Made by a program: the position numbers and the translations under genes
In this document: one piece after another, positions 10,092 through 12,288 of the stretch
Layout of the letters: each line of letters starts with the position of its first letter
Numbering within the stretch: position 1 is the stretch's first letter
Notes under the pieces: generated by a model
The model's input: the letters and a program-made list of their open reading frames with translations, nothing else
Databases searched by the model: none
Told to the model about the DNA's origin: nothing
IMG/VR virus record: IMGVR_UViG_3300025581_000001
Span: 32,001-96,000 of that record
DNA: 64,000 nucleotides
Strand: one strand, 5' to 3'
Source of the DNA: a virus

Positions 10092-11084
10092 ATGGAAAAT
10101 CTAATCATGGAGCCGGTGACCCGGCTCACGAAAGACCTCGCTGTGGCAGCGGCTACGTTGAGCGTGCGTGAAGCGCGCTACCTTGTCGATGCCTACTACA
10201 CGATTCAGGACTACCGCATAGCGTCGGACGCGCAAATCAGGGAGATGACCAAGTCCGGTGAGCCTCATGACGTCCTGAAGTGGGCGGCGAAGCAGTACAT
10301 CACTCTTGAATCGCAATTGAAGCGGTCGCTGGACAAGTGGACGGACAACCAGTACATGGGCCGTTGGGCGAAAGCGATTTGTGGTATCGGCCCGGTTATC
10401 TCCGCCGGTCTGCTGGCGCACATCGACATCGAGAAGGCCCCGACAGTTGGCCACATCTGGCGCTTCGCTGGGCTCGACCCGACTAATAAGTGGCTGGGCC
10501 GTGAGAAGTCCAAAGCTCTGGTCATGTCGGTTTGCGGTTCCGCCAATGTTGTTACCGAAGAGCAAATTACACAGATTGCCACTCTTGCCTTTTACCGAAC
10601 GGAGCAGCTTCACACAATGGTTGGGGAAGGTTCGGTTACGCGTAAGAAGTTGGTGACTGCATTGACCAAGCGGCCCTACAACGCCGACTTGAAGACGCTG
10701 TGCGCTTTCAAGCTGGGCGAGAGCTTCGTGATGGTGCAGAACAACAAGAACGATATCTACGGCAAGGTCTTCGCCGCGCGCAAGCGCGAGGAGGAGGCGA
10801 AGAACGATGTGCTGGCATTCAAGGCGCAGGCCGAGCAGATACTCGTCACCAAGAACTTCGACAAGACGACAGACGCGTACAAGGCGCTGATTCAGGGGCG
10901 TTTGCCGCAAGCGCAAATCCACGCAAGGGCACGGCGCTATGCGGTGAAGCTGTTTTTATCGCACTACCACGCTGAGGCATACCGGCAGCGCTTTGGTAAG
11001 GAGCCACCGTTGCCGTATCCGATTGCGTTCCTTGGGCATGCACACATGATTGATGGGCCGAAGATAACCAGTATAACCGAGTGA
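10092..11084 (+). CDS. Tas-like (TIGR-associated) Nop/IS110-Tnp-domain RNA-binding protein, nuclease-less TasA-like
   Basis: Coiled coil RYLVDAYYxIQDYRIA...QIR; HhH-like GIGPVISAGLLAHID...TVGHIWRFAGLDP; C-terminal IHARARRYAVKLFLSH; no N-terminal DEDD RuvC; sits directly upstream of a 36-nt dual-repeat array. Confidence 0.85.
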   Translation: MENLIMEPVTRLTKDLAVAAATLSVREARYLVDAYYTIQDYRIASDAQIREMTKSGEPHDVLKWAAKQYITLESQLKRSLDKWTDNQYMGRWAKAICGIGPVISAGLLAHIDIEKAPTVGHIWRFAGLDPTNKWLGREKSKALVMSVCGSANVVTEEQITQIATLAFYRTEQLHTMVGEGSVTRKKLVTALTKRPYNADLKTLCAFKLGESFVMVQNNKNDIYGKVFAARKREEEAKNDVLAFKAQAEQILVTKNFDKTTDAYKALIQGRLPQAQIHARARRYAVKLFLSHYHAEAYRQRFGKEPPLPYPIAFLGHAHMIDGPKITSITE

Positions 11085-12249
11085 ACCGTTGTGTATGAGT
11101 GAGCCAACTGCGAAGAAATAGAACCATGAGTAGTGAGCGAGTCAACTAGTAAGAGAGAACCATTGAAAGCGAACGAGTCAGGGAAGTCGAATAGTACCAG
11201 TGTCTTCGAGCGAGTCAGCATGAGCGAGAGTACCAAATGTATCGAACGAGTCGTAACAGTAGAGGGAACCGGGTCTAGTGAACGAGTCGTGTTGGACGAG
11301 AGCACCATGATTCAAGAACGAGTCACGTGAAATGAGAGAGCCTGAGTACGCGAACGAGTCAAGCACCGCGTGAGAACCAGAATTTACGAACGAGTCATTG
11401 GTCTCGAGAGTACCACGAAACCAGAACGAGTCACGAGAAACGAGGGTACCAAACGAAGCGAGCGAGTCAGATTGCAAGAGAGCACCATGTGAGAGGAACG
11501 ATCCATTGAACCCGATAGTACCAACACTTGTGAGTGAGCCGTGGATTCTGATAGAACCATCCTGCTGGAAGCGAGTCATGTTGTCTGAGAGTACCAAAAA
11601 GAGAGAACGAGCCTTGGGCATTGAGAGTACCATGCGCCCCGAGAGCGAGTCAGCGATCCGAGAGAGCACCATACGAAAGGAACGAATCATCAGATTAGAG
11701 GGAACCACTAGATGTGAATGAGTCAGGGCCTTCGAGGGAACCACAAAACACGAGCGAGTCGAATCGAATGAGAGCACCGGATCAAGCGAACGAGTCAGTT
11801 GAGTCAGGTACAATGAGAGAACCATCTAGACCGAACGAGCTATCACCTCGAAGAGTACCAGTAGATAGGAGCGAGTCATGCGACGCGAGGGCACCAGTTG
11901 ACTTGAGCGAGTCACTAGTTTTGAGAGAACCATCAAAGGAGAACGAACCAATACATACGAGAGCACCAGTACGTATGAGTGGGGCCATAGCATTTGAGAG
12001 CACCAGATGTGCGGAGCGAGTCGTCGGCTTTGAGAGAACCGTTGATGTAGGTTGATGTAGAACGAGTCACCGCAAAAGAGCGAACCACTGAAGAAGAACG
12101 AGTCAACGGATAGGAGAGTACCAGGTTCCTGGAACGAGTCATCAGCTTAGAGAGAACCGGTGATGTGGAACGAGTCACAACGCCTGAGAGAGCCAGCGGA
12201 AGGGGAACGAGTCAATGTCATAGAGGGCACCAATATCGGAGAACGAATC
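11079..12249 (+). repeat. TIGR-like tandem interspaced guide RNA array: about 31 units of about 36 nt (repeat A GARCGAGTC, 9-nt spacer, repeat B GAGAGHACC, 9-nt spacer)
   Basis: 32 copies of repeat A counted by hand (11097, 11135, 11171, 11208, 11244, 11280, 11316 ... 12168, 12205, 12241), mostly 36 nt apart, alternating with repeat B; spacers unique. Confidence 0.92.
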
Positions 12250-12252
12250 CTA

Positions 12253-12288
12253 ATGCAGGCGCTAACTCAACAGCGCCTGCATCCTTTC
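12253..12288 (+). terminator. Hairpin closing the array (probable terminator)
   Basis: Perfect 11-bp stem ATGCAGGCGCT/AGCGCCTGCAT with 8-nt loop, followed by CCTTTC. Confidence 0.65.

What the first reader, a model, noticed from the sequence alone, without database searches (positions are those of the whole stretch)
10092..12288. Phage-encoded TIGR-Tas-like RNA-guided system: IS110/Nop-domain protein plus a ~31-unit dual-repeat, dual-spacer 36-nt array
Seen: directly after a 330-aa ORF the sequence has a strict 9-9-9-9 rhythm, for example GAACGAGTC-gtaacagta-GAGGGAACC-gggtctagt-GAACGAGTC-gtgttggac-GAGAGCACC-atgattcaa. Repeat A occurs 32 times (11097 to 12241) and alternates with repeat B. The roughly 60 nine-mer spacers are unique, and the array ends in an 11-bp hairpin. 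It is not CRISPR: repeats are 9 nt, two different repeats alternate, and there are no cas genes. Established knowledge: 36-nt units with edge and loop repeats and two 9-nt spacers next to a Nop-domain protein related to IS110 transposases and box C/D snoRNP proteins is the architecture of TIGR-Tas systems, where the two spacers pair with opposite strands of a PAM-free target. Inference: this phage makes about 31 distinct guide RNAs, perhaps aimed at competing phages, mobile elements or host genes. I cannot tell whether this repeat family and its targets have been described.
Basis: partly seen in the sequence, partly recalled or inferred. Interest (0 to 1): 0.97.

Follow-up and report, generated by a model that had tools for sequence, protein, structure and literature searches.

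The report
Phage TIGR-TasA guide-RNA locus
A complete 121-kb uncultured phage carries a nuclease-free RNA-guided DNA-binding protein (TasA) followed by an array of about 31 two-part guide RNAs; it is a well-preserved but ordinary member of the TIGR-Tas family published in 2025, and its DNA targets remain unknown.

Summary
At 11079-12249, 32 copies of an edge-type repeat (GAACGAGTC) alternate with 32 of a loop-type repeat (GAGAGNACC). They are separated by 63 unique spacers and form 31 units, 22 of them exactly 36 nt. A combined repeat pattern hits 24 times against 0.02 expected. The array starts on the stop codon of a 330-aa ORF and ends in an 11-bp hairpin.

The protein is homologous to TIGR-TasR and TasH (profile E 4.4e-21 and 2.1e-12). 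Its AlphaFold model matches them at Z 17.9-19.0 against 9.4 or less for unrelated chains. The match begins after their nuclease domains, so this is a TasA. It keeps the Tyr/His guide-processing pair (Y309, H316). Of 80 relatives fetched from viral contigs, 67 carry 36-nt-period arrays, and at least 11 have the same two repeats.

I found no targets. The phage's own genome shows nothing above shuffled-pair controls. This is a new member of a known kind. This scan has already noted TIGR-Tas loci in at least 35 other genomes. One side result: spacers are about 9.5 GC points below their flanks in 76 of 82 arrays.

The parts
10092..11084 (+). tasA: 330-aa nuclease-less Tas protein (N-terminal coiled-coil dimerisation hairpin plus Nop domain)
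   Evidence: Pfam PF02371 at E 5.7e-5. PDB profile hits to TIGR-TasR 9mty at 4.4e-21 and TasH at 2.1e-12. AF2 model with pLDDT 89.8, all helical. VIA-align Z 19.0 to TasH and 17.9 to TasR.
10500..10667 (+). Codons for residues 137-192: a 56-aa helical insertion between the AGLDPTxKW and KRPYN motifs
   Evidence: An insertion of 30 aa or more is present in 13 of 34 aligned homologues and absent (2 residues) in 21. It is modelled as four helices at high confidence.
11016..11039 (+). Codons for Y309 to H316: the predicted metal-independent pre-tigRNA processing dyad in the C-terminal loop
   Evidence: Y309 and H316 align with SpTasH Y289 and H296 (alignment; residue roles from PMC13421893, passages). 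H316 is invariant in 34 of 34 homologues. Position 309 is Y in 27 and F in 7.
11079..12249 (+). Dual-repeat TIGR array: 32 edge-type and 32 loop-type repeats, 63 unique spacers, 31 edge-to-edge units
   Evidence: Only this stretch of the genome has lag-36 periodicity.
11797..11814 (+). Irregular 18-nt spacer holding a partial extra edge-type repeat (45-nt unit)
   Evidence: spacer list; unit lengths.
12041..12059 (+). Irregular 19-nt spacer made by a tandem duplication of about 10 nt (46-nt unit)
   Evidence: spacer list; unit lengths.
12253..12282 (+). 11-bp GC-rich hairpin after the last edge-type repeat, the likely transcription terminator of the tasA-array transcript
   Evidence: Fold of -20.6 kcal/mol, z -4.86. 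It is followed only by CCTTTCT, so the simple terminator rule did not list it.

Best explanation
This is a dual-repeat TIGR-TasA system carried by a complete 120.7-kb phage.

Proposed mechanism, with the basis for each step:
1. tasA and the array are transcribed as one + strand RNA that ends at the hairpin at 12253-12282. This is inferred: the first repeat overlaps the stop codon, there is no gap, and both lie on the same strand.
2. TasA dimerises through its N-terminal helical hairpin. This is predicted here and is shown for TasR, TasH and PlTasA in the literature.
3. Each dimer binds one unit. One Nop domain holds the edge repeat (GAACGAGTC+A) and the other holds the loop repeat (GAGAGNACC+A). 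Both are recognised through shared ends, GA at the 5' side and YC-purine at the 3' side. This is inferred.
4. Y309 and H316 cut the precursor inside the edge repeat without metal and release 36-nt tigRNAs. This is inferred from alignment to SpTasH.
5. The two 8-9-nt spacers pair with opposite strands of one contiguous 16-18-bp site. One target strand reads spacer A followed by the reverse complement of spacer B. I derived this geometry from the reported 3' overhangs.
6. With no nuclease domain, the complex only binds and bends the DNA, which blocks transcription or replication. This is shown for MbTasA and PlTasA and inferred here.

The roughly 31 guides do not match the phage's own genome. 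They are most likely aimed at host DNA or at competing mobile elements. That conclusion is by exclusion only.
For: Array anatomy and significance.

Homology: a phmmer search gives E 1.5e-8 to 9mty_A and 3e-4 to TasH. A profile of 34 homologues gives 4.4e-21 and 2.1e-12, and weaker 1.4e-5 to the IS621 recombinase.

Fold: the AF2 model has pLDDT 89.8 and pTM 0.84. Foldseek's top 10 chains are all TIGR-TasR or TasH, each with probability 1.00. VIA-align gives Z 19.0 to TasH (rmsd 3.1, 218 aligned, model 23-326 on chain 66-309) and Z 17.9 to TasR (rmsd 2.5, 193 aligned, model 26-326 on chain 112-322). IS621 scores 13.5 and the best unrelated chain 9.4.

Processing dyad: Y309 and H316 align with SpTasH Y289 and H296. 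H316 is invariant in 34 of 34 homologues.

Dimer: the homodimer score is 0.55 against a best control of 0.00. That mark was reached by 20 of 30 proteins solved as pairs of one chain and by 1 of 23 solved as single chains. The runs agree in at least 66% of contacts, the partner pLDDT is at least 78, and the interface lies in residues 12-79. Because like complexes are solved, this pass may only reflect likeness.

Conservation of the pairing: 434 of 456 pattern matches in viral contigs encode relatives. 67 of the 80 fetched loci have a stretch that passes the periodicity threshold, and lag 36 is the best lag in 65 of them. No window of the phage genome outside the array passes that threshold. At least 11 of the 80 loci show the same consensus pair, GAACGAGTCA and GAGAGAACCA.

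Symmetry: the base after the edge-type and loop-type repeats agrees in 71 of 71 arrays, A/A in 55 and G/G in 16. This is what binding to a symmetric dimer predicts (PMC12045711, section 8).

Literature: family definition from PMC12045711, sections 4, 6, 7, 8 and 10. TasA as a repressor from bioRxiv 10.64898/2026.09.09.750476, section 12.
Against: - No RNA data exist for this phage, so transcription, processing and 36-nt products are not shown.
- No target was found. In the phage genome the true units give 0 hits with 0-1 mismatch and 3 hits with 2 mismatches. Random spacer pairings give means of 0.33 and 4.73.
- The repeat ends (GA ... YC-purine) differ from the UG ... CCA boxes of TaTasR. Assigning them as boxes is by position only.
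- The hairpin lacks a long U-run, and the simple terminator scan did not list it.
- Position 309 is F in 7 of 34 homologues, so the tyrosine is not universally required in this clade.
- 13 of 80 related loci showed no array at my threshold.
- Calling the A-type repeat the edge repeat rests on three things: it closes the array, it is the more conserved repeat, and the published description fits. It does not rest on mapped RNA ends.
Confidence: 0.92

Rival explanations
1. An IS110-family transposase with its guide (bridge or seek) RNA, meaning a mobile element rather than a guide array.
For: Pfam's only hit is Transposase_20, the IS116/IS110/IS902 C-terminal domain. PHROG 4285 is labelled transposase. 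IS621 and ISCro4 recombinases are weaker sequence and fold matches.
Against: No N-terminal DEDD/RuvC domain is present. Pfam shows nothing else at E up to 1. The structural match to IS621 starts at its residue 125 and aligns with residue 22 of this protein. TasR and TasH match better (Z 17.9-19.0 against 13.5). A bridge RNA is a single two-loop RNA, not 31 tandem 36-nt units. The genome holds one copy only.
Confidence: 0.02
2. A DNA-level array of protein-binding sites (iteron-like or centromere-like repeats every 18 bp) bound as double-stranded DNA, not a guide-RNA array.
For: Short repeats at a fixed 18-bp spacing could in principle seat a DNA-binding protein. No RNA evidence is available here (one search listed no RNA holder, which shows nothing either way).
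Against: All 24 pattern matches are on one strand, co-oriented with tasA, and the array is closed by a hairpin. The adjacent protein has the RNA-binding Nop fold of proteins solved with tigRNA. Homologous arrays are shown to be processed into 36-nt RNAs (PMC12045711, abstract and figure 2 legend).
Confidence: 0.03
3. A translated 12-residue tandem repeat, or a CRISPR array.
For: One minus-strand frame has a 215-aa open stretch with only 4 stops. The interspaced layout superficially recalls CRISPR.
Against: Stops occur in all six frames (21, 19, 18, 17, 16 and 4), and 8 of 31 unit lengths are not multiples of 3. The variable positions show no three-base rhythm in information content. The repeats are 9-10 nt and of two kinds, the spacers are 8-9 nt, and none of the 9 neighbouring ORFs I scanned matched a Cas family in Pfam or PHROGs; the only named hits were a portal protein and a KTSC domain, plus two sub-threshold Pfam hits. 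Rfam gave no match.
Confidence: 0.01

Closest known systems
Dual-repeat TIGR-TasA systems, for example FpTIGR of Flavonifractor plautii (Faure et al. 2025, PMC12045711, section 4)
   Same: A solo Nop-domain Tas protein without a nuclease. An adjacent array of two alternating short repeats with two spacers per 36-nt unit. The array ends with an edge repeat and a hairpin. The locus is carried by a phage.
   Different: I could not align this protein to FpTasA because no sequence was available to me. The repeat ends here read GA ... YC-purine. The array is longer than the 5-15 units called typical in PMC12045711 (31 units). The protein carries a 56-aa helical insertion that only 13 of 34 close homologues have.
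SpTasH of Salicola phage CGphi29 (PDB 9w03, 9w04, 21kl; PMC13421893)
   Same: Best structural match: Z 19.0 over 218 residues. 10-nt repeats with 8-nt spacers. The Tyr/His processing pair aligns, with the same 7-residue spacing. The host is a phage.
   Different: SpTasH has an N-terminal HNH nuclease (its residues 1-64 have no counterpart here) and cuts DNA. Sequence identity is only 15-17%.
TaTasR (PDB 9mty; PMC12045711, section 8)
   Same: Best sequence match in the PDB: profile E 4.4e-21 and Z 17.9. Same coiled-coil plus Nop architecture and 36-nt dual-repeat tigRNA.
   Different: TaTasR carries an N-terminal RuvC nuclease (its residues 1-111 are unmatched), 9-nt repeats with UG ... CCA ends, and 9-nt spacers.
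IS110-family bridge-RNA recombinases (IS621, PDB 8wt6)
   Same: Shared Nop-like RNA-binding domain, at Z 13.5 and profile E 1.4e-5. The guide also has two parts.
   Different: This protein has no DEDD domain and no matched serine-bearing catalytic module. It has an array of many guides instead of one bridge RNA, and there is no sign of mobility.

Membership tests
TIGR-Tas | Tas protein with the coiled-coil plus Nop-domain fold, homologous to characterised Tas proteins | tested here: met
   Profile E 4.4e-21 to TasR 9mty and 2.1e-12 to TasH. Foldseek's top 10 are all TasR or TasH. Z 17.9-19.0 against 9.4 or less for unrelated chains.
TIGR-Tas | Array of two distinct alternating 8-12-nt repeats separated by spacers of about 9 nt (36-nt unit), next to the tas gene | tested here: met
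   32 plus 32 repeats. 54 of 63 spacers are 9 nt. 22 of 31 units are exactly 36 nt. The array begins on the tasA stop codon.
TIGR-Tas | Edge and loop repeats share box-like ends that covary, as a symmetric dimer requires | tested here: met
   Both repeats start with GA and end with YC plus a purine. The base after the two repeat types agrees in 71 of 71 arrays of relatives, 55 A/A and 16 G/G. The motif letters differ from TaTasR's UG ... CCA.
TIGR-Tas | Array ends with an edge repeat followed by a rho-independent terminator | tested here: met
   The last element is an A-type repeat at 12241, followed by an 11-bp hairpin with z -4.86. The U-run is short, and the simple scan did not list it.
TIGR-Tas (dual-repeat clade) | Conserved Tyr/His processing dyad on the C-terminal loop of the Nop domain | tested here: met
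   Y309 and H316 align with SpTasH Y289 and H296. H is present in 34 of 34 homologues and Y in 27 of 34. Catalysis itself was not tested.
TIGR-Tas | Array transcript is processed into 36-nt tigRNAs bound by Tas | not testable with these tools
   No RNA data were available for this phage, so processing could not be tested.
TIGR-Tas | Tandem-spacer pairing to opposite strands of a DNA target | tested here: inconclusive
   No target above controls was found in the phage genome or in 195 related loci.
TasA subtype | No HNH or RuvC nuclease domain N-terminal to the coiled coil | tested here: met
   Only about 20 residues precede the matched region. The model is all helical. Alignments start at model residue 22-26 against TasH 65 and TasR 112. 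Pfam shows no nuclease domain at E up to 1.
IS110 transposase | N-terminal DEDD (RuvC-like) catalytic domain plus C-terminal domain, with a single bridge RNA | tested here: not met
   Only PF02371 was found. The match to IS621 begins at its residue 125. There are 31 tandem guides instead of one RNA.
CRISPR-Cas | One repeat of 25-36 nt, spacers of similar size, cas genes | tested here: not met
   Two alternating 9-10-nt repeats and 8-9-nt spacers. None of the 9 neighbouring ORFs matched a Cas family in Pfam or PHROGs.

The most novel reading that the evidence does not exclude
TasA guide arrays, including this one, may be selected to bind AT-richer DNA than the genomes that carry them, for example promoters and other regulatory regions of the host or of rival elements. 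The 31 guides would then be a natural multiplexed repressor programme used during infection. The hint is that the variable spacer bases lie about 9.5 GC points below the flanking DNA in 76 of 82 arrays of this clade (window: 42% against 58%; Wilcoxon p 3e-13). The words 'GC content' and 'AT-rich' do not occur in the main texts of PMC12045711 or of bioRxiv 10.64898/2026.09.09.750476. The trivial alternative is that any non-coding sequence in a GC-rich coding genome drifts to lower GC.
Probability: 0.15. Interest if true: 0.6.

Novelty: new member of a known kind. Interest (0 to 1): 0.3.

Why it matters
TIGR-Tas systems are compact, PAM-free RNA-guided DNA binders and cutters. Their natural targets and biological role are still open questions (PMC12045711, discussion; bioRxiv 10.64898/2026.09.09.750476, discussion).

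This locus offers three things:
- a complete phage genome (direct terminal repeats, completeness estimate 100%);
- an intact TasA;
- 31 guides.

That makes it a clean case for asking whether a phage TasA silences host or rival DNA. My self-targeting tests were negative, which argues against regulation of the phage's own genes by perfect or near-perfect matches. Beyond that it adds one more example to a catalogue of thousands.

Tried and rejected
Searches for relatives and context that gave nothing:
- The phages collection gave no match for the locus DNA, for TasA or for the portal protein. No cultured relative or host could be named.
- Single-protein scans for relatives found none in viral contigs or metagenome contigs. 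Alignments were needed.
- The closest homologues, at 70% and 64% identity (P0002, P0003), could not be fetched. I therefore could not compare arrays of near relatives. The best fetched locus was 58% identical.
- Bacterial genome contigs gave 35 loci. The best were an Acidobacteria MAG (53%) and Acidobacteriaceae bacterium KBS 96 (49%). This is only a weak hint to the host.
- Rfam gave no match at E up to 1.

Target searches, all negative:
- Adjacent spacer pairs, in both possible strand geometries and two control geometries, against the phage genome with the array masked. I tried 18-mers with up to 3 mismatches and 16-mers with up to 2. Counts in the true geometries did not exceed the controls.
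- 16-mers with gaps of 0-2 bp and both unit phasings, against 100 sets of random non-adjacent pairings. With edge = A there were 0 hits at 0-1 mismatch and 3 at 2 mismatches. The null means were 0.33 and 4.73.
- The same search on 195 fetched loci (1.27 Mb). There was one 2-mismatch hit in the expected geometry and one 1-mismatch hit in the other geometry (L042:5381). The two control geometries gave 2 and 0 hits.
- Spacer sharing with other arrays. 11 exact matches of C+spacer+GA were found, against roughly 8 expected by my own arithmetic.
There were 194 occurrences against 175.6 +/- 22.4 for shuffled spacers, so no depletion.

Steps I did not take:
- I did not scan the public collections for predicted targets. 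16 guide bases would give many chance hits per scan, and the query would have been a joined, reverse-complemented sequence.
- No ParB-like gene was detected among the 9 neighbouring ORFs.
- Sequencing runs: no RNA holder was listed. The one DNA run may be the source.
I cannot say whether this very protein is among the 20,096 catalogued tas loci.

Papers, and what I saw of each:
- PMC12045711: outline, sections 4, 6, 7, 8, 10, 24 and 49, and passages found by term search.
- bioRxiv 10.64898/2026.09.09.750476: outline, sections 5, 6, 10, 12 and 13, and passages.
- PMC13421893, 10.64898/2026.08.11.744272 and 10.64898/2026.07.30.739390: passages only.
- Other titles: search listing only.
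Full report
What is there. Directly after a 330-aa ORF (10092-11084, + strand) the sequence becomes a strict alternation of two short repeats. A chain parse anchored at 11244 found 32 A-type repeats with consensus GAACGAGTC. Of these, 13 are exact, 12 have one mismatch, 4 have two, 2 have three and 1 has four. 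They alternate with 32 B-type repeats (GAGAGNACC) from 11079 to 12249. The 63 spacers between them are all different. 54 are 9 nt long, and the rest are 10 (five), 11 (two), 18 and 19 nt. Edge-to-edge unit lengths are 36 nt in 22 of 31 units, then 37 (5), 38 (2), 45 and 46.

Significance. A combined pattern of both repeats at 9-nt spacing, with up to one mismatch, occurs 24 times in the window. All 24 are on the + strand inside the array, against 0.02 expected, and no shuffle of 100 reached 24. In the whole 120,726-bp genome only this stretch has lag-36 self-identity of 0.5 or more: 13 of 100,401 windows, with a maximum of 0.444 elsewhere. The array ends with an A-type repeat at 12241 and an 11-bp GC-rich hairpin at 12253-12282 (-20.6 kcal/mol, z -4.86).

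The first repeat-like element sits on the stop codon of the ORF. The base following both repeats is A in 24 of 32 and 26 of 32 copies, and otherwise mostly G. The repeats are therefore effectively 10 nt and each spacer has 8 freely variable bases, as in the SpTasH system (8-nt spacer A; passage of bioRxiv 10.64898/2026.08.11.744272).

It is not coding and not CRISPR. All six frames contain stops (21, 19, 18, 17, 16 and 4), and 8 of 31 unit lengths are not multiples of three. The information content of the variable positions shows no three-base rhythm. The repeats are far shorter than CRISPR repeats and of two kinds. None of the nine neighbouring ORFs I scanned matched a Cas family in Pfam or PHROGs. 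One is the portal protein (12389-14458, PF04860, E 4.6e-22), one has a KTSC domain, one has only two Pfam hits below their gathering scores (RAMA, DUF2924), and six have no hit in either library. Rfam has no matching family.

The protein. Pfam sees only the IS110-type C-terminal domain (PF02371, E 5.7e-5), and PHROGs calls its family a transposase. Against solved structures the best sequence match is chain 9mty_A (E 1.5e-8). One search identifies that entry as 'TIGR-TasR in complex with tigRNA and target DNA'. Next come TasH and then the IS110-family recombinases ISCro4 (E 0.0092) and IS621 (E 0.038). A profile of 34 homologues raises these to 4.4e-21 (TasR), 2.1e-12 (TasH) and 1.4e-5 (IS621).

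An AlphaFold model built on that alignment is confident (pLDDT 89.8, pTM 0.84) and entirely helical. Foldseek's ten best chains are all TasR or TasH. VIA-align gives Z 19.0 to TasH (rmsd 3.1, 218 residues) and 17.9 to TasR (rmsd 2.5, 193 residues). IS621 scores 13.5 and the best unrelated chain 9.4. The aligned ranges show the subtype. Model residues 22-326 correspond to TasH 65-309 and TasR 112-322, which is everything after their HNH and RuvC domains. With only about 20 residues ahead of the coiled coil, this is a nuclease-less TasA.

In the profile alignment, Y309 and H316 fall on SpTasH Y289 and H296. PMC13421893 (passages) names those two residues as the catalytic pair for metal-independent pre-tigRNA processing. 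H316 is invariant in 34 of 34 homologues, and position 309 is Y in 27 and F in 7.

A homodimer prediction scored 0.55 against a best control of 0.00. That mark was reached by 20 of 30 proteins solved as pairs of one chain and by 1 of 23 solved as single chains. The runs agree in at least 66% of contacts and the partner pLDDT is at least 78. The interface lies in residues 12-79, the N-terminal helical hairpin. Because Tas dimers are solved, this pass may only reflect likeness.

Relatives. The family is very large: 5,563 proteins at E up to 0.001 among the 8,000 candidates scored, with the nearest at 70% and 64% identity. In viral contigs, 434 of 456 pattern matches encode relatives, and I kept 80. 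In 67 of those 80 loci a stretch next to the gene passes the same periodicity threshold that only the array passes in this phage. Lag 36 is the best lag in 65 of the 67. The other 13 loci showed nothing at that threshold.

At least 11 of the 80 loci carry the same consensus pair, GAACGAGTCA and GAGAGAACCA. Others carry close variants such as GAGCGAGCCA/GAGAGCACCA, or forms ending in G. Across 71 arrays with enough parsed units, the base after the edge-type repeat and the base after the loop-type repeat always agree: A/A in 55 and G/G in 16. Faure et al. describe exactly this covariation for motifs that must fit a symmetric dimer (PMC12045711, section 8).

Bacterial contigs with relatives are mostly soil lineages. 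The best are an Acidobacteria MAG (53%) and Acidobacteriaceae bacterium KBS 96 (49%). Nothing in the collection of deposited phage genomes matches the locus, TasA or the portal protein. The record itself is a virus contig with direct terminal repeats, a completeness estimate of 100% and a single tas gene.

Which repeat is which. I take the A-type as the edge repeat and the B-type as the loop repeat, for three reasons. The array closes with an A-type repeat before the hairpin, as the published arrays do (PMC12045711, section 4). The A-type core CGAG is conserved across relatives, while the centre of the B-type varies and is purine-rich. This fits the description of the loop repeat as making no sequence-specific contacts (section 8). 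This is an inference. RNA ends were not mapped.

How it most likely works. The mechanism follows the published family. A TasA dimer binds each unit of the co-transcribed precursor and cuts within the edge repeat through Y309 and H316. It then holds a 36-nt tigRNA whose two spacers pair with opposite strands of one contiguous site. The paper reports 3' overhangs. From this I derive that one target strand reads spacer A followed by the reverse complement of spacer B. The opposite arrangement would give 5' overhangs (PMC12045711, section 7). Gaps of 1-2 bp are tolerated there. Lacking a nuclease, TasA should bind and bend DNA and block transcription, as shown for MbTasA and PlTasA (bioRxiv 10.64898/2026.09.09.750476, section 12; 10.64898/2026.08.11.744272, passages). 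None of these steps is shown for this locus.

Targets. I tested whether the guides address the phage itself.
- Adjacent spacer pairs in both strand geometries gave no more near-matches in the masked genome than two control geometries.
- With 16-bp cores, gaps of 0-2 and the edge = A phasing, there were 0 hits at 0-1 mismatch and 3 at 2 mismatches. Random spacer pairings gave means of 0.33 and 4.73.
- Spacer 8-mers are not avoided in the genome: 194 occurrences against 175.6 +/- 22.4 for shuffled spacers.
- The 195 fetched related loci gave nothing above controls, and spacers are not shared with other arrays beyond rough chance.

The guides therefore point outside the phage, but at what I cannot say. 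Both papers state that natural targets are largely undetermined, because 16-18 nt gives many false matches.

Side observation. The variable spacer bases are lower in GC than the DNA flanking the arrays in 76 of 82 arrays of this clade. The mean difference is -9.5 points and Wilcoxon p is 3e-13. One of the 82 rows has no flank. The window itself shows 42% against 58%. 'GC content' and 'AT-rich' do not occur in the main texts of the two main papers. This could reflect AT-rich targets such as promoters, an unwinding constraint, or simply the lower GC of any non-coding sequence beside coding flanks. I have not separated these.

Verdict. The locus is a genuine, intact dual-repeat TIGR-TasA system. 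The family was published in 2025, with 20,096 tas loci and 6,685 annotated arrays reported since (bioRxiv 10.64898/2026.09.09.750476, section 5). At 31 units the array is about twice the mean implied there (65,635 tigRNAs in 4,126 dual-repeat arrays), but some relatives fetched here have longer periodic stretches (for example 2.0-2.6 kb in L047, L048 and L056). This scan has already noted such systems in at least 35 other genomes. I rate it a new member of a known kind, of modest interest. I could not check the papers' supplementary tables, which may already list this contig.

Noticed in passing
window 11079-12249 and 81 related arrays (loci): The variable spacer bases are on average 9.5 GC points below the flanking DNA, in 76 of 82 arrays (window 42% against 58%). 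This could mean AT-rich targets or merely non-coding drift. It is not mentioned in the main texts of the two main TIGR papers.
   Followed up: partly
window 10500-10667 (TasA residues 137-192): A 56-aa insertion of four confident helices lies between the AGLDPTxKW and KRPYN motifs. It is present in 13 of 34 close homologues and absent in 21. I did not test that.
   Followed up: partly
window 11797-11814 and 12041-12059: Two scars interrupt the array. One is a spacer holding a partial extra edge-type repeat (45-nt unit). The other is a spacer with a tandem duplication of about 10 nt (46-nt unit). Seven further units are 37-38 nt. They look like local slippage rather than any ordered spacer acquisition.
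   Followed up: no
window 11055-11087: The last codons of tasA read as three 9-nt pieces, each ending in AACC, as if degenerate loop-type repeats had been absorbed into the ORF's low-confidence C-terminal tail (pLDDT under 50 for residues 327-330).
   Followed up: no
L042:5381 (viral contig locus): One 18-mer built from the spacers at 11761 and 11779 matches with a single mismatch. It is in the strand geometry that I consider the wrong one, and my estimate of the chance expectation is about 0.2 per geometry. It is probably chance.
   Followed up: no
window 12348-12376: A promoter-like site (TAGACA, 17 nt, TACGAT) lies between the array's hairpin and the portal gene. This fits a separate late transcript starting after the TIGR locus. 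The count of such sites in the region is no higher than in shuffles.
   Followed up: no
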